A stretch of 64,000 nt of DNA from a virus (Duplodnaviria; Heunggongvirae; Uroviricota; Caudoviricetes). The position numbers and the translations under genes were made by a program. The DNA lies in the IMG/VR virus record IMGVR_UViG_3300023297_000003, one strand, 5' to 3'. The notes under the pieces were generated by a model that had not been told where the DNA came from, made no database searches, and was given only the letters and a program-made list of their open reading frames with translations. Positions 20,271-64,000 of this stretch are shown here, in pieces. Each line of letters begins with the position of its first letter. Within the stretch, counting starts at the first letter, position 1.

Positions 20271-20406
20271 GGCGGCGTGGGCAAACTGGTAAAGCCACAA
20301 GACTTAATCTTGTTTCGTAAAACATCGTTCCACACCTCGGACCCTGTCATGGGGACCAAACTGGGGAACAAACACGCACCTGGAGGTTCGAGTCCTCCCG
20401 CCGCCA
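20271..20406 (+). ncRNA. tRNA-Leu-like chimera with Y-RNA-like stem in the variable arm
   Basis: Acceptor, D and T arms intact; shortened anticodon loop CTTAA; insert GTTCCAC-ACCTC-GGACCC..GGGGAAC-AAACAC matches the 62 kb motif. Confidence 0.75.
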
Positions 20407-20416
20407 CCCACCTTTT

Positions 20417-23254: not shown

Positions 23255-23383
23255 GGGAAGGGTGGTCTAGTAGCCGAGTGGCTCCCGAGTAGCGCACTCA
23301 GGGGTTGCGGAGCAGGCAAGGACACTCGTTGGGGACCGGACAACCCTGCAGAGAGGTCGGTGGTTCAAATCCATCCCCTTCCC
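23255..23383 (+). ncRNA. tRNA-like RNA with expanded D loop and anticodon arm
   Basis: GGAAGGG/CCCTTCC acceptor, GGTGG-TTCAAAT-CCATC T arm, G-1:C73. Confidence 0.7.
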
Positions 23384-44006: not shown

Positions 44007-44840
44007 TTACCACTCCCGGACGGGTCCGTCACCGTCAAGCAGCAAGGACATCCGATCACGGACGCTCGCTGGCAACTTGGCAACGGCCTTTTCTATGTCC
44101 CTCCGGCTGTGACGCAAGGAGAAATGAACCAACAGCACATGCTCGAAGGTCATCTTCTCCAGCATCGGGGCCAGTTCATCCAGGTGCGTGTGCCCGTGCT
44201 TCCGGGCGTGAGGCACAGGGGCTTCTCCGTTCACGAAGGTACACTCCGCAATCAGGAACTTGGCCCGCTGCACGTCGGGGTGTGCCAGGGCCTCAGGCAG
44301 GGTATCCCCCGTGTATGCCAGGACTGGCGTGACGACCTTGTCAGACACCTCGACCCCGCTCTTTCGCAGGGCACCTATCTCGACCCCCAGCATGCCGACG
44401 TATTCGGCCCTCAGTTTGGACCGGGTCTCGTACAGGACGTAACCCTGGGACGGGACACGGTGGGCCGTGTGGAAAGCACTGACGGTCAAACCTTTGCTTA
44501 CGTACACCGGAGCATCCCCCGGAGCCAGCCGAACAATCTCGTACTTGAAGCCACCCTGTATCTCGTTCCACAGGGTCAGCAGCGCCTCCAGGTGATCTCC
44601 AACCTCGGGGTTGCAAATGAACCTAGACGGCGAGTGTCCCTGCAAAGACCGAGAGGCAGCGTGCTGCACGGCCCCGCCCATGTGATCGATGTGTGCGTGG
44701 GTGACCAGGACCGTCTGGTAGGACATGGCTTCCTTTGAGCAGTGGCCTATGTCCAGGACGACCTTGTAGGGATGCACGACCAGACAGGTGCTGACACCGC
44801 TGGCCGAGGCCCCTGTAACTGTGACACCATTTACTCGCAT
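44007..44840 (-). CDS. rnz: RNase Z (metallo-beta-lactamase fold tRNA 3' endonuclease)
   Basis: THAHIDH, HRVPSQGY, short exosite, YTGDT, ECTF, GHTH, HFSLR. Confidence 0.8.
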   Translation of the reverse strand: MRVNGVTVTGASASGVSTCLVVHPYKVVLDIGHCSKEAMSYQTVLVTHAHIDHMGGAVQHAASRSLQGHSPSRFICNPEVGDHLEALLTLWNEIQGGFKYEIVRLAPGDAPVYVSKGLTVSAFHTAHRVPSQGYVLYETRSKLRAEYVGMLGVEIGALRKSGVEVSDKVVTPVLAYTGDTLPEALAHPDVQRAKFLIAECTFVNGEAPVPHARKHGHTHLDELAPMLEKMTFEHVLLVHFSLRHSRRDIEKAVAKLPASVRDRMSLLLDGDGPVREW

Positions 44841-45489: not shown

Positions 45490-45513
45490 GTGGTAGGCGA
45501 GGCCGGGAATTAG

Positions 45514-45586
45514 TAGAGGATGGGGGATTTGAACCCCCGACCATCGCCTTGTAGGAGCGACGCTCTCCCAACTGAGCTAATCCTCT
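45514..45586 (-). tRNA. tRNA-Val(TAC)
   Basis: Cloverleaf (C33). Confidence 0.92.
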
Positions 45587-54653: not shown

Positions 54654-54725
54654 TGAACATCGGCCAATAAGGTTTGATGAGGTGCCTGACGATTTCCTCA
54701 GGAGTCCTGACCAAACCCAATCTAG

Positions 54726-54797
54726 TAGCGGGGGACGGGATCGAACCGCCGACCTCCGGGTTATGAGTCTTCTGAGCTACCACTGCGCCACCTCGCA
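54726..54797 (-). tRNA. tRNA-fMet(CAT)-like with unpaired anticodon stem (possible pseudogene or chimera)
   Basis: 1:72 mismatch; GAAGA-CTCATAA-CCCGG does not pair. Confidence 0.7.
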
Positions 54798-59089: not shown

Positions 59090-61024
59090 CTAGGCCCAGA
59101 AGGGCTTCTGGAGCAATGAGGTCTCAAGAATTTCCTGGAGCAGGGACTTCCGATGCTTCACCGGGGCATCCTGCTTCGTCGTCCCCACCGGCGTGGTGGA
59201 GATCAAGTTCCGCAGGGTCCGGGTCACGGCGTAGGGGTCATCCGTGTTGAACAGCGCTTCCTCGATCTGGAAGCAGGGGATCCCCATCCTGGTGGCCGTG
59301 TCCTGAACGTAGGTACCGTTATGGCCCATCATGCCCTTCACCTTCAGAAGGCCTATGGCCACCGGACGGACACCATGCCGGTCGCAAACGTTGATGACCC
59401 GGTCGCTGGGGTACTCACCCTCGTCACCCACGAAGAGGAACAGTGCGTCCTCCTCCGGGCCGGGCTTGTGGCTCTTCAGCAGCACATCCACCCCAGTGGC
59501 GTGGCACGTCCCACCCGCTGCCTGATGCCCCCGGAACGCCTGTTCCACTGCCCCGGCAGAAGCCGCCTTGATGGTGATCTCCATACCGATGGTGTTGAAC
59601 ACCGAAACGTGCAGGCGATCCAGCGGGAAGCCCCCGAGGAACTTCTTAAGGTAGCCCTTCGCCGCCTGGATGGCACCCTGCATGGAACCGGACTTGTCCA
59701 CAATGACGTAGACCCGCAGGCCCCTGGTGACTTCCTCCATCGCCTTCTTCGTGGCCGTGTCCGCTGCACCCTGGAGTTTCTCCACGGTCTCGGTCTTCCG
59801 CACACGGCGAGCGATGTTGGTGGCACGCTGGTTGTCCGCAGCCGCCAGGGCCTTATCGTGCTTGGCCTGGATGTCGGGCAGCTTCAGGAGTTCCATGTCC
59901 TCCAGCGTCGGCGTCAGGATGATCAGGTCGGCATTGGACATGCAACCGTTCAGGACAGCCGCCGCAACAATGGCACGGGTGAGACCCCCGAGGTATCCTT
60001 TGGGATACGGTTTGTCAGTATCCTTCGGAAGCGGGGGCGGAAGCTTTCCAACGATCAGCTTCCAGTTGGGCTTGTCCTTGGCGATGCGGTTGCAGATCTG
60101 CCGTTCGGACAAACCCTCCCAGGTGTCAGCCTTCTTGACCTTCGCACCAATGGCAATGGTCCGACGACCGTCCTTGGCCTGTTCCTGCTTCCACCGCAGG
60201 ATCTCGAAGAACTGCGGGGACGTCGGCTTGTACCCGACCCGCTGGGCGAGCCGGATCACGGAAGTACGGAAACCCGCACGGACGAGACCATTCAGGAGCT
60301 TGATGTTCTCCTCACGGTACCGAAGCCACTTTGTCACGAGCTTCAGGTAGCGCCCGTAGAACGGCTTCCGAGCGGAGTGGCCGAAGCCGAGATCCCTGTT
60401 GATCTGTGCTACCCCCGGCACAGCCAGCACGTCACCGAGCCGGAGCAGGAGCTTGGGGTTGAAATCGTGCTTGCCCCGGATCAGGCACATGGCCTCCCCG
60501 ACCGCACGGTAGTCATCATCCAAGAGATCCGGCTCACCCGCTACGGGTTCCCCGAAACGGTTCTGGCAGAGCATGAACGCCGCCAGGATGACCTTCATGT
60601 CCCGGTGGTCACGGGGGAAGGCCCAGGACGCCCAGTGAGCGGCAAACTCGTTGTCCGCCTTCCACACCTCTGCGACCTGCTGGTACATCCAGGTGACTAC
60701 CTCCGGGAACAGACCCGGCTTGCGGTACTCACCAAGGATCTTCCGTCCGCTGACGATCTTGCCGTCGTCCCGAAGGATGCCGATTTTGGTCTTGACGGAT
60801 TTACGAGCCACCTTCGTCAGGCGGTAGACGACCTTCTCCTGTTTGCCCTTGTCACCCTCTAGCTTCCAGGAGATCGGCTCCCACTTGACGCCGACCTTGG
60901 AGGTCGTGTCCGGGGAAACCATCCCCGGCCTCCCATGATAAAGGTGATCGAGATGAGTGGTCAGGGACTGAATCGCTCGTTCAGCCGGGCCAAGACCCTC
61001 AATCCGTGCTTCTTGCTCATTCAT
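59090..61024 (-). CDS. Ro60/TROVE-like helical domain plus vWA protein
   Basis: ~430 aa basic helical N-terminus; C-terminal vWA VIVDKSGSM, GGT, VGDE; adjacent Y-like RNAs. vWA is certain, TROVE is inferred. Confidence 0.7.
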   Translation of the reverse strand: MNEQEARIEGLGPAERAIQSLTTHLDHLYHGRPGMVSPDTTSKVGVKWEPISWKLEGDKGKQEKVVYRLTKVARKSVKTKIGILRDDGKIVSGRKILGEYRKPGLFPEVVTWMYQQVAEVWKADNEFAAHWASWAFPRDHRDMKVILAAFMLCQNRFGEPVAGEPDLLDDDYRAVGEAMCLIRGKHDFNPKLLLRLGDVLAVPGVAQINRDLGFGHSARKPFYGRYLKLVTKWLRYREENIKLLNGLVRAGFRTSVIRLAQRVGYKPTSPQFFEILRWKQEQAKDGRRTIAIGAKVKKADTWEGLSERQICNRIAKDKPNWKLIVGKLPPPLPKDTDKPYPKGYLGGLTRAIVAAAVLNGCMSNADLIILTPTLEDMELLKLPDIQAKHDKALAAADNQRATNIARRVRKTETVEKLQGAADTATKKAMEEVTRGLRVYVIVDKSGSMQGAIQAAKGYLKKFLGGFPLDRLHVSVFNTIGMEITIKAASAGAVEQAFRGHQAAGGTCHATGVDVLLKSHKPGPEEDALFLFVGDEGEYPSDRVINVCDRHGVRPVAIGLLKVKGMMGHNGTYVQDTATRMGIPCFQIEEALFNTDDPYAVTRTLRNLISTTPVGTTKQDAPVKHRKSLLQEILETSLLQKPFWA

Positions 61025-61661
61025 GGTGTCTCCTGCTTTGTCTGTTTGTCCGAAGGCGATGACAGATGGCACACACCACATCGCACTTGGCTATCTCATC
61101 TAATAGTAATTGCTTGGACCCACAAAAGACCATGCTGGAAATTTTGGCCACCTTGGTTTTCGGGTCTCTGTGATCAAAGTCCATGGCACAGGCAGGAAAG
61201 GAACAACCACAGTCCTGACAGGGTTGATTTTTAGCCTGGGCTGCGATCTTTTGGAGTTTGGTTCTCTGACGACGGTTGTTCTTCAGGTAAGGAACCCGAT
61301 CCTTTCGGTATTGTCGTAAACGGTGTTCCCTTTGGCAGTCCCGACAACGAGAAAGGCGACGCAACAGCGACTCGTTTTTGAAAGCAAAGGTGCTAATCGG
61401 AAGCTCTCTCTGACAATCAGGACAAACCCTGGTGCTCGGTTCCACAATTAATCCAGCGGTCACGGCTTGCCTGCGAGCGTCCAGCAGACGTTGTTGCTCC
61501 CGTCTGTACTGGGCTTTATCCTGACGAGCATACCGCTGCGCCCGGTACATCCTGTCACACTCCTGACACTTGGAGATCCTGTATCCCTTTGCTTTTACCT
61601 TGACTCGGAATTCATCAAGGGGGAAGGCACCCCCACAACCTGTACAAATTTTTATGCCCAT
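61017..61661 (-). CDS. HNH homing endonuclease
   Basis: Two CxxC..CxxC fingers; CQDCG..MDFDHRD..KCDVVCAICHRLR. Confidence 0.88.
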   Translation of the reverse strand: MGIKICTGCGGAFPLDEFRVKVKAKGYRISKCQECDRMYRAQRYARQDKAQYRREQQRLLDARRQAVTAGLIVEPSTRVCPDCQRELPISTFAFKNESLLRRLSRCRDCQREHRLRQYRKDRVPYLKNNRRQRTKLQKIAAQAKNQPCQDCGCSFPACAMDFDHRDPKTKVAKISSMVFCGSKQLLLDEIAKCDVVCAICHRLRTNRQSRRHHE

Positions 61662-61817: not shown

Positions 61818-61843
61818 CAAAAGGGGAGGTTGCCCTCCCCTTT
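61818..61843 (-). terminator. Intrinsic terminator ending the ncRNA array
   Basis: GGGGAGG-GCAA-CCTCCCC-TTTT. Confidence 0.8.
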
Positions 61844-61852
61844 CGGGTGTAA

Positions 61853-61940
61853 CTGAACGTGCGAGGAGCCGAGCGGAACTTGCGATGGTAACAGGGCGGA
61901 CCCCGTTGGTGCTTGTATGCTCGACAGGCTGCACGTCCAA
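61853..61940 (-). ncRNA. Y-RNA-like element E5 (no tRNA core)
   Basis: GGACGTGC-AGCCT-GTCGAGC-ATACAAG...GCTCGGC-TCCTC-GCACGTTC. Confidence 0.75.
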
Positions 61941-61955
61941 ACTGAATATCAAATA

Positions 61956-62106
61956 GAGGACATCCGAGTGAGTGAGCGTGTTACCAGTTCCCCTTCCCGC
62001 CGGGTCGGGGGACTGCGGACTGGAATTGAACCAGTAACTTTCAGATTATGAGTCTGATGCTCGACCAATTGAGCTACCTTGTGTGCTCACTCTGATGGAT
62101 GCCCTC
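61956..62106 (-). ncRNA. Y-RNA-like element E4, tRNA core with CAT anticodon
   Basis: D, anticodon and T arms enclosed by a bulged terminal stem; no acceptor stem. Confidence 0.8.
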
Positions 62107-62165
62107 AAGTGCGAAGCCAGGATTTGAACCTGGCTCAAAGCCGGAGTTACCTCCTCCCATCCGCA
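62107..62165 (-). ncRNA. Mini-tRNA-like spacer S3
   Basis: TGCGGA/TTCGCA stem plus CCAGG-TTCAAAT-CCTGG T arm. Confidence 0.65.
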
Positions 62166-62174
62166 GTTCGTACC

Positions 62175-62316
62175 AAAAGCACCCGAGTAGGCGAACGTTG
62201 TTTACAATCCCTTGCGAGATCGTGGAATCGGATTCGAACCGATCACCTTCAGCTTTGCAGGCTGATGCTCTATCCAGATGAGCTATCCTTGTATGTTCGC
62301 CTGGATGGGTGCCCTT
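62175..62316 (-). ncRNA. Y-RNA-like element E3, tRNA core with GCA anticodon
   Basis: Same architecture and ATACAAGG / ACTC motifs. Confidence 0.8.
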
Positions 62317-62388
62317 GGTGCAGACGTCAGGAGTCGAACCTGAAGACGTGGGCAAACACGTCATCCCGCCTGTGCCGGGATTACTGCA
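62316..62388 (-). ncRNA. Aberrant tRNA-like spacer S2 ending ACCA
   Basis: 6-bp D-like arm, 6-nt anticodon loop, T arm, CCA. Confidence 0.65.
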
Positions 62389-62392
62389 TGAA

Positions 62393-62454
62393 GCGGCAAG
62401 TCAGGAATTGAACCCGAAAAGGTTGCATGCACCTTTTGACCACAACTGTACCGC
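62393..62454 (-). ncRNA. Mini-tRNA-like spacer S1
   Basis: GCGGTA/TGCCGC stem plus T arm TTCAATT. Confidence 0.6.
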
Positions 62455-62459
62455 AAATA

Positions 62460-62591
62460 AAGGACGCACGAGGTGACGTGCTGTGTTTGGTGGAAAGAAA
62501 CGGAATTGAACCGTTAACCTTCGGAATGTAAATCCGATGCTCTACCAATTGAGCTATCATACCTTGTAAGCACGTCTGATTGTGCGCCCTT
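62460..62591 (-). ncRNA. Y-RNA-like element E2, tRNA core with TAC anticodon
   Basis: Same architecture, TTACAAGG / ACCTC motifs. Confidence 0.8.
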
Positions 62592-62593
62592 AG

Positions 62594-62727
62594 TCGGGGA
62601 GCCAGGATTCGAACCTGGGCAGCGTGTATGCTTCCCTTGATGGACCCGTAAAGGTCCGAGGTGAGAAGCGGGGTTGCTTTTGGCTTTCTCTAAATGAAAG
62701 TGCTCTACCAGACTGAGCTACCCCCCG
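62594..62727 (-). ncRNA. tRNA chimera E1 with permuted Y-like stem in the variable arm, anticodon TTA
   Basis: CGGGGGG/CTCCCCG acceptor; GCTTCTC-ACCTC-GGACC..GGGTCC-ATCAA-GGGAAGC-ATACAC insert. Confidence 0.8.
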
Positions 62728-62794
62728 ATACTAAGTAAAACTGACTATCAAAGAACCCGTGAATCCGTCCAGGGCTGTCCCTATCATACCTGTA

Positions 62795-62866: not shown

Positions 62867-64000
62867 TTAACGCTCTGCCGAAACAGAGTGACGTACCCGA
62901 CCAGTTATTGGGTACGATTCGCCCCCAGGAATCTCGCCTGGGTTACCATGCATGCCTGCAATATTACAGGAACCGATGGCAGGGCTGTGAGCCCAACTAT
63001 TCTTCGGCCTCAGGAACTCGTCCCTCAACCACGACCAAGCTCTCGGACGTAAAGTATGCTTTCGGGATCTTCCTTCCAGGTTTACCCGAGAACCCCCACG
63101 ACCTGTTAACTTGTCCGTAAAACGTTGACTCTCCAAATAACCCATACCCCTGCGAGCTATCACTAGCGCAGCAGCAGTGTGAACATTCAAAGAGTACATG
63201 TCCTGATACTTCAGTTTTCCCAGCACCGAAGTAAACGCTGGGTTAACCTCGACAACTTCGACACCCATCTTCACAGCACGAGACTTGATTGCTTCCAGCA
63301 TCTGACGATGAAGGAAATTGGATCTCATACGATTGAACTTCTTGTTCTTCTGTTTACCTGCCCGAAAACGTAGTTCCTCAAGAACAAGAGGCTTCTTTGT
63401 TAAGAAGGCAAACAAAACGACCCGAACCGCAAGTTGCCGAATGTCATAGGTCTGTTTTTCGGATTTGGCGAAACGAATCCTCTGTTCCTTTTCATAGTGA
63501 TGGTGAACAAGCTGTCCCTGAGAGTTCGTTTCAACAATAGCAAGACCGTCAGGGTTGCAGTCGATACCAATGGTTCCCTGACTAACAGGTTTCGTTACGA
63601 TCTGTGGGGTTTCAAATTCTGAGGAAATCTTGACCTCAATCTGACCCTTACGGTAGATAAGTCTCACGTCGTAGCAGTCTGGATTGAACTCAAACTTGTC
63701 AGGCATCCAGAACTTGCCCTCAATCCAACGACCTCGTTCCGAAGGGTCGTTAACGAGGATTCGGTTACCCACTATACGGATGTTAGGATTCCCTCGCTTG
63801 GTTTTGTCTCCTCGGGAATAGAGTTGTGAGTTACGCCTCTGTTGCCATTCCCCCTTGGAGATCTTGCCTTTTTGGAGGTCTCTCCAAGCTGGTTTGCCTC
63901 CGAAAATTACCGAGGGGGTGTTTCTCTTTTGGGCAGCGAGGCCGCAAGCGTCTCCAACATACCGTTGGTTTAGGCCAGCCATGTAGTTTCCCTTGATGGC
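62867..64000 (-). CDS. tnpB: TnpB-related nuclease, paralog of 35644-36927 (5' end outside window)
   Basis: Near-identical motifs; shared 3' end GGCGGTGAAAGGACGCCAG..GAAACCAGG. Confidence 0.9.
   Translation of the reverse strand, partial: AIKGNYMAGLNQRYVGDACGLAAQKRNTPSVIFGGKPAWRDLQKGKISKGEWQQRRNSQLYSRGDKTKRGNPNIRIVGNRILVNDPSERGRWIEGKFWMPDKFEFNPDCYDVRLIYRKGQIEVKISSEFETPQIVTKPVSQGTIGIDCNPDGLAIVETNSQGQLVHHHYEKEQRIRFAKSEKQTYDIRQLAVRVVLFAFLTKKPLVLEELRFRAGKQKNKKFNRMRSNFLHRQMLEAIKSRAVKMGVEVVEVNPAFTSVLGKLKYQDMYSLNVHTAAALVIARRGMGYLESQRFTDKLTGRGGSRVNLEGRSRKHTLRPRAWSWLRDEFLRPKNSWAHSPAIGSCNIAGMHGNPGEIPGGESYPITGRVRHSVSAER

What the first reader, a model, noticed from the sequence alone, without database searches (positions are those of the whole stretch)
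62107..62454. Mini-tRNA spacers punctuate the Y-like array
Seen: S1-S3 keep an acceptor-like stem and a canonical T arm but have degenerate D and anticodon arms. E2, E3 and E4 each start immediately after the 3' end of a tRNA-like unit. Known: RNase P and RNase Z recognise the acceptor/T-arm domain, and this window encodes an RNase Z-like enzyme. Inference: the spacers act as processing signals (tRNA punctuation) that release RNAs lacking their own acceptor stem.
Basis: partly seen in the sequence, partly recalled or inferred. Interest (0 to 1): 0.7.

Follow-up and report, generated by a model that had tools for sequence, protein, structure and literature searches.

The report
Stripped-down tRNA spacers between phage Y-like RNAs
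In a giant phage, three shrunken tRNA look-alikes sit between small Ro-partner-type RNAs exactly where tRNA-cutting enzymes would have to cut to free them. Related phages keep the same layout, but no RNA data yet show the cuts.

Summary
The three units are real, but two details in the finding are wrong or overstated.

**Layout (minus strand, 62752 to 61818):** a promoter-like motif, a 134-nt tRNA carrying a Y-type handle, four stem-closed Y-like RNAs (E1-E4), and three handle-less tRNA relics:
- S1 62454-62393
- S2 62388-62316
- S3 62173-62109

**What holds:**
- The T arms are perfect: three orphan T arms in 350 nt against 0.004 expected.
- No tRNA model detects the units.
- E1, E2 and E3 begin 4-5 nt after a tRNA-type 3' end (discriminator, C-Y-R, A), the same spacing as this phage's tRNA-tRNA junctions.

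**What does not hold:**
- The closing 'acceptor' stems have only 6, 5 and 6-of-7 pairs, no better than shuffles.
- E4 follows a second copy of the promoter-like motif, not a tRNA-like unit.

**Related huge phages:**
- 19 of 50 E units have a T arm ending 12-15 nt upstream (7% by chance).
- S3 sits in the slot of a full 127-nt tRNA-handle gene.
- Elsewhere the slot holds a bare 11-13-bp hairpin with a CCA-like tail.

**Verdict:** most likely these are tRNA top halves kept as RNase P / RNase Z cut sites. An RNase Z homologue lies at 44007-44840. The cuts are inferred, not shown. The scan noted the same layout before in another huge phage (e1-5406826).

The parts
62738..62752 (-). Promoter-like 15-nt motif, copy 1. 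It ends 10 nt upstream of the tRNA-handle.
   Evidence: Only two matches to the motif in 64 kb, both in this array. Similar CTTTGA-type motifs head units in L005, L006, L086 and L089. A role in transcription is inferred.
62594..62727 (-). 134-nt tRNA with a UUA anticodon and a 60-nt permuted Y-type handle in the variable arm. Its 3' end (A62594) is followed by CUAA, then E1.
   Evidence: Rfam tRNA 47.2 bits, full length. Acceptor is 7 of 7 pairs.
62462..62589 (-). E1: a stem-closed Y-like RNA. The bulged two-part handle encloses a tRNA-Val(UAC)-like head.
   Evidence: Handle found by the E finder. The head scores 69.3 bits to the tRNA model. Fold.
62393..62454 (-). S1: mini-tRNA.
- 6-bp closing stem, 62454-62449 with 62398-62393.
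- 7-bp central hairpin.
- T arm 62417-62401.
- Followed by UUCA, then S2.
   Evidence: T arm. Closing stem and central hairpin are in the centroid fold; z -1.0. This is the least certain of the three.
62316..62388 (-). S2: a 73-nt cloverleaf-shaped tRNA relic.
- 5-bp closing stem.
- Two non-tRNA hairpins.
- T arm 62343-62327.
- 3' end A62319, then C62318-C62317-A62316.
   Evidence: MFE equals centroid, -28.6 kcal/mol, z -2.6. No tRNA-model hit. The 3' part is homologous in L005, L006 and L086.
62177..62314 (-). E2: a stem-closed Y-like RNA with a tRNA-Cys(GCA)-like head. Its stem can extend through CCAA 62318-62315 pairing with UUGG 62176-62173.
   Evidence: The head scores 50 bits to the tRNA model.
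62109..62173 (-). S3: a 65-nt mini-tRNA.
- Closing stem 62173-62167 with 62115-62109, 6 of 7 pairs.
- T arm 62133-62117.
- Flush with the E2 3' end, and 2 nt from E3.
   Evidence: T arm. Positional homologue of the 127-nt tRNA-handle genes of L086 and L006 (alignment A2). Fold z -1.2, and the proposed closing stem is not in the MFE.
61956..62106 (-). E3: a stem-closed Y-like RNA with a CAU-anticodon tRNA-like head. The head keeps only 2 acceptor pairs.
61939..61953 (-). Promoter-like 15-nt motif, copy 2. It ends 1 nt before E4.
   Evidence: The same ...AGTTTG|G junction precedes E units in L005, L029, L041 and L092.
61855..61938 (-). E4: a stem-closed Y-like RNA without a tRNA head and with no tRNA-like unit before it.
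61818..61844 (-). GC-rich hairpin followed by a T run: the likely terminator of the array.
   Evidence: Read from the sequence. The consensus scan did not list it.
59090..61024 (-). 644-aa helical + vWA protein, a Ro60/TROVE-like candidate, downstream of the array.
   Evidence: The AlphaFold model's best PDB matches are Ro60 chains over about 550 columns: E 1e-6, TM 0.30-0.40. Pfam finds only VWA_2. More than 1,400 homologues, many on contigs of 140-536 kb.
44007..44840 (-). RNase Z homologue, 277 aa.
   Evidence: PDB 7xgt RNase ZS1, E 1.6e-55; 1ww1 Thermotoga tRNase Z, E 3e-12. NCBIfam RNase_Z 74.7 bits, below the 293-bit cut-off. HAHIDH motif present.

Best explanation
S1-S3 are stripped-down descendants of this phage lineage's tRNA and 'tRNA-handle' genes. 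They keep only the tRNA top half: a closing stem stacked on a T arm, plus a tRNA-type 3' tail (discriminator, C-Y-R, A).

The array is most likely transcribed as one precursor from the motif at 62752-62738. Tail-specific tRNA-processing enzymes would then cut at the relics:
- RNase P at their 5' sides (before 62454, 62388 and 62173). This sets the 3' ends of the preceding E RNAs.
- An RNase Z-type endonuclease at their 3' sides (after 62392, 62319 and 62108, or after the C-Y-R triplet). This creates the 5' ends of the next units, which have no RNase P site of their own.
- The RNase Z-type enzyme could be the host's or the phage's 44007-44840 product.
- E4 gets its 5' end from its own promoter-like motif instead.

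Shown: the anatomy, homology to full tRNA-handle genes, the conserved junction grammar across phages, and the presence of an RNase Z homologue.

Inferred: co-transcription, the cuts, and which enzymes make them.
For: - Three perfect T arms in 350 nt, 0.004 expected.
- The tRNA-handle to E1, S2 to E2 and S3 to E3 linkers are N73 + CUA/CCA/UUG + A. This equals the linkers between adjacent ordinary tRNA genes of the phage, e.g. Met to Cys ACCA-A.
- In 177 kb upstream of homologous Ro-like genes, 46 E units are found on the sense strand and 0 on the reverse complement.
- 17 of 46 E units (19 of 50 with two more loci) have a T arm ending 12-15 nt upstream, against 6.8% of controls (P=3.7e-9).
- 17 of 19 linkers start with C, and 18 of 19 have a pyrimidine next.
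- S3 occupies the slot of a 127-nt tRNA-handle gene. The flanks and T arm are conserved, about 75 nt of interior is missing, and the acceptor is replaced on both strands yet still pairs.
- The spacer before E2 is homologous in four phages. Its T stem covaries (UCAGG/CCUGA, CCAGG/CCUGG, GUAGG/CCUAC). The closing stem is 7 of 7 in L005 and 8 of 9 in L086.
- In L014 and L067 the slot holds 11-13-bp hairpins, the length of an acceptor + T stack. They have z -3.5 to -4.7, UGAAA-type loops and an N-CCR-A tail 4-6 nt before E. L055 has a 40-nt closing-stem + T-arm unit.
- 5' leaders are A/U-rich, with U at -1 for S1 and S2.
- RNase Z homologue with an intact metal motif.
Against: - No transcript or end data exist.
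- The closing stems of S1-S3 are short, have 1-3 unpaired nt next to the T stem, and are not better than shuffles. They would be poor RNase P or RNase Z substrates.
- S1 abuts S2, not an E unit, so one of the two is redundant for punctuation.
- E4 and roughly 45% of E units in relatives lack any such element, so E RNAs can be made without it.
- The related 441-kb phage has neither an RNase Z homologue nor bacterial type-A RNase P RNA.
- Tight spacing may partly be inherited from compact tRNA clusters.
- Related loci are not all independent: L014/L067, L006/L086 and L029/L041 are pairs.
Confidence: 0.5

Rival explanations
1. Neutral relics. S1-S3 are decaying remains of tRNA-handle genes left by deletions and recombination in a fast-turning-over array. 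They have no role of their own. E RNAs would instead be matured by their own promoters, by exonucleolytic trimming back to the protein-protected handle, or by RNase E or RNase III. On this view the tight junctions are inherited from compact tRNA clusters.
For: - S3 is an internally deleted tRNA-handle.
- The L086/L006 spacer still carries a vestigial permuted handle.
- Closing stems are no better than shuffles.
- Spacer content differs in every relative.
- E4 and many E units elsewhere do without such a unit.
- Other degenerate tRNA-like units occur elsewhere in the window, e.g. 54795-54722.
Against: - Interiors have diverged beyond alignment between phages whose neighbouring protein is 67-69% identical. 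Yet every spacer keeps a perfect, covarying T arm in the same register before E.
- The acceptor of S3 was replaced on both strands and still pairs.
- The reduction ends at hairpins of tRNA top-half length with CCA-like tails, rather than at nothing.
- The phasing is highly non-random.
Confidence: 0.27
2. Products in their own right. The relics are released as stable tRNA top-half mimics that act as decoys or sponges. Targets could be host tRNA-directed defence nucleases or acceptor-end-modifying toxins, the CCA-adding enzyme, T-arm modification enzymes or EF-Tu. Alternatively they could be second partners of the Ro-like particle.
For: - S2 is a stable cloverleaf with an encoded A-CCA end.
- Top-half-only tRNA mimics recur in other phages noted by this scan (unchecked leads).
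- The phage invests heavily in tRNA-related RNAs: 32 tRNA/tmRNA genes plus chimeras.
Against: - The sequence, size and number of relics are not conserved between relatives. Only their position and top half are.
- S1 and S3 have no CCA and have weak stems.
- Nothing in the window links them to a specific target.
Confidence: 0.13
3. Composite RNA. Each relic and the following E unit work uncut as one dimeric tRNA-like RNA. An example would be a YrlA-style permuted tRNA domain formed by the relic's T arm and the D arm of the E head.
For: Weak Rfam YrlA matches span each relic or tRNA T arm through to the next D arm: 62138-62058, 62344-62267 and 62619-62539.
Against: - Scores are 15-17 bits against a gathering score of 69, with E 2.7-6.4.
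- The segment between the T arm and the D arm is not a hairpin.
- Chen et al. warn that dimeric tRNAs give false YrlA hits (PMC4201824).
- The E handles close each E unit on its own.
Confidence: 0.04

Closest known systems
tRNA punctuation of animal mitochondrial transcripts (own knowledge: Ojala, Montoya and Attardi 1981)
   Same: tRNA-shaped units lie between other RNAs in one precursor with 0-5 nt to spare. RNase P and RNase Z cuts at the tRNA ends would release the neighbours.
   Different: Here the punctuating units are non-decoding relics, the released RNAs are small Y-like non-coding RNAs, and the setting is a huge phage. The cuts are not demonstrated.
tRNA-like processing elements: plant mitochondrial t-elements, MALAT1 mascRNA, MHV68 tRNA-miRNA units, plant tRNA-snoRNA genes (own knowledge; t-elements PMC1920247 as named)
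   Same: Acceptor/T-arm mimics with degenerate D and anticodon parts, used only to recruit RNase P and/or RNase Z so as to define the end of a neighbouring RNA.
   Different: No sequence relation. Those elements have well-formed 7-bp acceptor stems, whereas S1-S3 have 5-6 pairs with bulges. The elements here descend from chimeric tRNA-handle genes.
Bacterial and phage Y RNAs (YrlA, Yrn1, phiLo Yrl1/2) encoded next to Ro60 (PMC4201824, PMC12135203)
   Same: Non-coding RNAs with tRNA-like modules lie upstream of a Ro60-type gene. M. smegmatis YrlA is cut by RNase P and receives CCA.
   Different: S1-S3 have no Ro-binding-type handle and fail the YrlA model. In YrlA the tRNA-like part lies inside the Y RNA and is not a separate spacer. 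The Ro60 assignment of the neighbouring protein rests on a fold match only.
Acceptor-T minihelix model substrates of RNase P, RNase Z and the CCA-adding enzyme (own knowledge)
   Same: The 11-13-bp hairpins with 6-9-nt loops and N-CCR tails in L014 and L067, and the 40-nt L055 unit, have the dimensions of such minihelices.
   Different: These are natural and genomically encoded, and sit in front of Y-like RNAs. The window's own S1-S3 are larger and less regular.
Phage T4 tRNA operon with co-transcribed small stable RNAs (species 1 and 2; own knowledge)
   Same: A phage polycistronic stable-RNA cluster in which non-tRNA RNAs are matured along with tRNAs.
   Different: The T4 extra RNAs are not Y-like, and no reduced tRNA spacers are described there.

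Membership tests
tRNA (Rfam RF00005 / ARAGORN) | Cloverleaf with a D arm and a 5-bp anticodon stem bearing a 7-nt loop, scoring above the model threshold | tested here: not met
   No hit for S1-S3 at gathering score or at E<=10 on a 1.3-kb search. ARAGORN finds none. S2's second hairpin has a 6-nt loop.
tRNA (Rfam RF00005 / ARAGORN) | T arm: 5-bp stem with a 7-nt T loop (U54, U55, C56, R57, A58) | tested here: met
   All three have 5 of 5 pairs and a TTCRA loop.
tRNA-like processing element (t-element / mascRNA / minihelix type) | Continuous acceptor + T-stem stack of about 12 bp ending in a discriminator | tested here: inconclusive
   - S1: 6+5 bp with a 1-nt gap.
- S2: 5+5 bp with a 3-nt gap.
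- S3: 7 (one mismatch) + 5-6 bp.
- None is beyond shuffles.
- Relatives are better: L005 7+5, L086 9+5, L014/L067 11-13 bp.
tRNA-like processing element (t-element / mascRNA / minihelix type) | Position flush with the end of the RNA to be released | tested here: met
   Linkers are 2-5 nt in the window. In relatives the T arm ends 12-15 nt before E for 19 of 50 E units, against 6.8% of controls.
tRNA-like processing element (t-element / mascRNA / minihelix type) | Cleaved by RNase P and/or RNase Z in vivo or in vitro | not testable with these tools
   No transcript data are held. This needs RACE, RNA-seq or cleavage assays.
YrlA (Rfam RF02553) | Score at or above 69 bits to the YrlA covariance model | tested here: not met
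   Best scores are 15.4-16.7 bits, E 2.7-6.4. The matches span two neighbouring units.
RNase Z (for 44007-44840) | Metallo-beta-lactamase fold with the HxHxDH motif and sequence similarity to characterised RNase Z | tested here: met
   HAHIDH motif. PDB RNase ZS1 E 1.6e-55 and Thermotoga tRNase Z E 3e-12.
RNase Z (for 44007-44840) | Score above the NCBIfam equivalog cut-off | tested here: not met
   TIGR02651 scores 74.7 bits against a cut-off of 293. It is a divergent member, and its activity is untested.
Ro60 / TROVE (for 59090-61024) | HEAT-repeat ring plus a C-terminal vWA domain | tested here: inconclusive
   The top Foldseek PDB hits are Ro60 chains (E 1e-6, about 550 aligned columns), but TM is only 0.30-0.40 and model pTM is 0.49. 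Pfam TROVE is not hit; VWA_2 only.

The most novel reading that the evidence does not exclude
A whole clade of huge phages may use a graded series of tRNA top-half mimics as built-in cut marks to carve Y-like Ro-partner RNAs out of polycistronic precursors.
- The series runs from a full chimeric tRNA-handle, through mini-tRNAs, to a 12-bp minihelix. Each is followed by a CCA-like triplet.
- Some members, this phage included, would bring their own Thermotoga/ZS1-type RNase Z to make the 3'-side cut after that triplet.
- This would be tRNA punctuation reinvented for a viral non-coding RNA operon.
Probability: 0.35. Interest if true: 0.7.

Novelty: new variant of a known kind. Interest (0 to 1): 0.55.

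Why it matters
If the cuts are real, this would be a phage example of tRNA punctuation applied to small non-coding RNAs. It would explain how Y-like RNAs that lack a processable acceptor end get defined ends.

The natural reduction series (full tRNA, mini-tRNA, minihelix) shows which tRNA features the processing step needs. It also gives a likely job to the phage-encoded RNase Z homologue.

Practically, it gives exact predicted RNA ends to test. It also gives a rule for annotating such arrays in huge-phage genomes, where tRNA finders miss these units. I found no description of this in the searched literature. The scan itself has seen the layout in one other huge phage.

Tried and rejected
- **tRNA finders on S1-S3:** no calls from Rfam at gathering score or at E<=10, nor from ARAGORN.
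- **YrlA reading:** rejected. Scores are 15-17 bits and the matches span two units. The YrlA paper itself warns about dimeric tRNAs.
- **Whole genome of the window:** not held. Genome-wide counts and a search for RNase P RNA in this phage were therefore impossible.
- **Related 441-kb phage:** no bacterial type-A RNase P RNA and no RNase Z homologue. No co-occurrence argument can be made.
- **DNA-pattern scan of IMG/VR for the E2 5' motif:** nothing found.
- **Same phage from other samples:** three contigs are 100% identical across the array, so there is no within-species variation to test selection.
- **Pair-count test of the closing stems:** not significant. I do not use them as evidence.
- **Thermodynamic support:** significant only for S2.
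- **Sigma-70 promoter scan:** nothing useful. Its terminator hits are the E handle stems.
- **Alternative one-unit fold of S1+S2:** the outer stem 62433-62428 / 62322-62317, as in L086 and L006, was considered. The MFE prefers two units, but the alternative cannot be excluded.

Full report
**Setting**

The window comes from a huge phage.
- The exact 644-aa product of 59090-61024 occurs on contigs up to 528 kb.
- The window holds 31 tRNA genes and a tmRNA.
- No whole genome is held for it.

**Anatomy of the array**

All features lie on the minus strand, and I read them. In transcription order:

| Feature | Coordinates | Note |
|---|---|---|
| Promoter-like 15-nt motif, copy 1 | 62752-62738 | |
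| tRNA-handle | 62727-62594 | 134 nt; 60-nt insert in the variable arm |
| E1 | 62589-62462 | |
| S1 | 62454-62393 | |
| S2 | 62388-62316 | |
| E2 | 62314-62177 | |
| S3 | 62173-62109 | |
| E3 | 62106-61956 | |
| Promoter-like 15-nt motif, copy 2 | 61953-61939 | |
| E4 | 61938-61855 | |
| Hairpin + T run | 61844-61818 | Likely terminator |
| HNH endonuclease gene | 61661-61017 | |
| vWA protein gene | 61024-59090 | |

- The tRNA-handle scores 47.2 bits to Rfam tRNA.
- E1-E4 share a two-part bulged closing stem, the 'handle'. A fold of the whole region recovers all four.
- The 15-nt motif occurs only twice in 64 kb, both times in this array.

**The observation**

- *T arms.* The three S units have perfect T arms. 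Strict T arms outside tRNA genes are expected 1.45 times per 128 kb of shuffled sequence. Three within 350 nt has P of about 1e-8.
- *Not tRNAs.* ARAGORN does not call the units. The Rfam tRNA model does not hit them, even at E<=10 on a short search. 'Degenerate D and anticodon arms' is correct.
- *Closing stems.* These are the weak point.
  - S1 has 6 pairs and one unpaired base next to the T stem.
  - S2 has 5 pairs and a 3-nt bulge, or 4 of 7 pairs in the canonical register. The canonical register does give a clean A-CCA end.
  - S3 has 6 of 7 pairs with an A.C mismatch, and its stem is not in the MFE fold.
  - A 6-of-7 match somewhere in the 5' part appears in 46-61% of shuffles.
  - Only S2 folds better than shuffles (z -2.6). 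S1 and S3 give z -1.0 and -1.2.
- *Junction statement.* It needs correcting.
  - S1 and S2 both lie between E1 and E2. S3 lies between E2 and E3.
  - E1, E2 and E3 each start 2-5 nt after a tRNA-type 3' end.
  - E4 follows the second copy of the 15-nt motif, not a tRNA-like unit.

**Junction grammar**

- After the 7-nt 3' strand come a discriminator, a C-Y-R triplet (CUA, CCA; UUG for S3) and an A, then the E stem.
- The phage's ordinary tRNA genes have the same tail. Where they are packed together, the next tRNA starts after the same 4-5 nt, for example Met to Cys with ACCA-A.
- The S-to-E junction is therefore built like a tRNA-to-tRNA junction. The downstream unit, however, has no RNase P site. 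Only an endonuclease acting at a tRNA 3' end could separate the two.

**Relatives**

The vWA protein has more than 1,400 homologues of about 625 aa, many on contigs of 140-536 kb. I fetched about 90 loci.

- *E family.* A simple structure-and-motif finder for E handles gave 46 hits upstream of the gene on the sense strand and none on the reverse complement, across 177 kb.
- *Phasing.* For 17 of 46 E units a T arm ends 12-15 nt upstream, against 6.8% of control positions (P=3.7e-9). With two more loci the count is 19 of 50.
- *What fills the slot.*
  - In most cases it is a 125-141-nt tRNA-handle with a 7 of 7 acceptor.
  - Handle-less reduced units occur in the window, L005, L006/L086 and L055.
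  - Nine further E units are preceded by a 9-14-bp hairpin ending 4-7 nt upstream, against 6% of controls. One of these is the window's own E4, whose predicted hairpin is probably spurious pairing with the E3 3' strand, which leaves 8.
- *Minihelix spacers.* In L014 and L067 these hairpins are 11-13 bp, with z -3.5 to -4.7 for four of the five and -1.5 for the fifth. They have loops holding UGAAA and a tail of N, C-C/U/A-R, A before E. That is the length of an acceptor + T-stem stack.
- *Other E units.* Seven others are preceded by an ...AGTTTG motif like the one before E4.

**Origin of the relics**

- Alignment A2 shows that S3 sits exactly where L086 and L006 have a 127-nt tRNA-handle gene.
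  - The end of E2, the T arm and the start of E3 all align.
  - About 75 nt of interior (D arm, anticodon arm, handle) is missing.
  - The promoter-like spacer is missing too.
  - The acceptor differs on both strands yet still pairs.
- The spacer before E2 is homologous at its 3' part in the window, L005, L006 and L086.
  - Its T stem covaries.
  - The closing stem is 7 of 7 in L005 and 8 of 9 in L086.
  - Its interior cannot be aligned.
  - The L086/L006 version still carries a vestigial permuted handle.
- The relics are thus reduced tRNA-handle genes in which the top half and its register before E persist while everything else changes.

**Enzymes**

- The 44007-44840 product matches rice RNase ZS1 (E 1.6e-55) and Thermotoga tRNase Z (E 3e-12).
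- It has the HAHIDH motif.
- It falls below the NCBIfam cut-offs.
- From my own knowledge, the Thermotoga enzyme cuts after CCA. That would fit the C-Y-R-A linkers, but this is conjecture.
- A related 441-kb phage has no such gene and no bacterial type-A RNase P RNA.

**Context**

- The structure model of the vWA protein has mean pLDDT 79.8 and pTM 0.49. It finds Ro60 chains first, with E 1e-6, about 550 aligned columns and TM 0.30-0.40.
- The Ro-like reading is plausible but not established.
- Pfam sees only VWA_2.

**Interpretation**

- *Processing signals (about 0.5).* The best reading is that the relics are retained as processing signals. RNase P would cut at their 5' sides and an RNase Z-type cut would fall at their 3' sides. 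E4-type units would get their 5' end by transcription initiation.
- *Neutral decay (about 0.27).* This explains the poor stems and the variability. It does not explain the perfect covarying T arms, the fixed register, or the reduction stopping at top-half-sized hairpins.
- *Independent function as tRNA top-half mimics (about 0.13).* Not excluded.
- *Composite relic + E RNA (about 0.04).* Not excluded.

**Novelty**

- tRNA punctuation and tRNA-like processing elements are well known.
- Y RNAs with tRNA-like domains next to Ro60 are known, including in phages (PMC4201824, PMC12135203).
- I found no paper describing reduced tRNA spacers between Y-like RNAs.
- The scan has one earlier, similar follow-up in another huge phage, e1-5406826.
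- I class this as a new variant of a known kind.

Noticed in passing
window 62594-62727 (-), 20271-20409 (+), 23257-23380 (+): Several full-length tRNA scaffolds carry long inserts.
- 62727-62594 has a UUA (ochre-reading) anticodon loop and a 60-nt hairpin insert in the variable arm.
- 20271-20409 looks like a second copy of this design, again with UUA in the loop.
- 23257-23380 has a perfect 7-bp acceptor and T arm around about 90 nt of non-tRNA interior.
- ARAGORN misses all three.
   Followed up: partly
window 54722-54795 (-): A degenerate tRNA-Met(CAU)-like unit with a good T arm but broken acceptor and anticodon stems. It lies between tRNA-Gly and tRNA-Ala and is missed by ARAGORN and by Rfam at gathering score.
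   Followed up: no
window 62867-63982 (-): A TnpB-like RNA-guided endonuclease ORF (NCBIfam guided_TnpB E 1.7e-16; Cas12f2 model E 2.8e-8) ends about 140 nt upstream of the RNA array on the same strand. Its guide RNA region would lie at about 62866-62740, next to the promoter-like motif.
   Followed up: no
window, all ARAGORN tRNA genes: Most of the phage's tRNA genes encode discriminator + C-U-A/U/G rather than CCA. About six encode CCA. Adjacent tRNAs are separated by just these 4-5 nt.
   Followed up: partly
window 62491-62563 (-): The head of E1 is an almost complete tRNA-Val(UAC): 69 bits, 5 of 7 acceptor pairs, and an internal ACCA. It is buried inside the Y-type handle. A second tRNA-Val(UAC) gene lies at 45513-45586.
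   Followed up: no
L086:1437-1752: In a related phage, a tRNA-like unit with the shared GGGGG... acceptor and a T arm carries an interior of about 250 nt before its permuted handle. This could be an intron or another embedded RNA.
   Followed up: no
window 61017-61661 (-) versus L005: An HNH endonuclease gene lies between the array and the Ro-like gene in this phage. It is absent from L005, which instead has a GIY-YIG gene after the Ro-like gene. Homing endonucleases appear to come and go around the locus.
   Followed up: no
L067:795-1268 and L014:2328-2568: Each E unit is followed by a run of 5-6 U, and then by the minihelix-type hairpin that precedes the next E. The hairpin loops share UGAAA / UGACA.
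   Followed up: partly
L005:322-462, L086:621-752, L006:300-425: The anticodon of the tRNA-handle units is not conserved between relatives. It reads UUA here, UUG-like in L086, UCC in L006, and an 8-nt loop holding CUA in L005. Decoding is probably not their conserved function.
   Followed up: no
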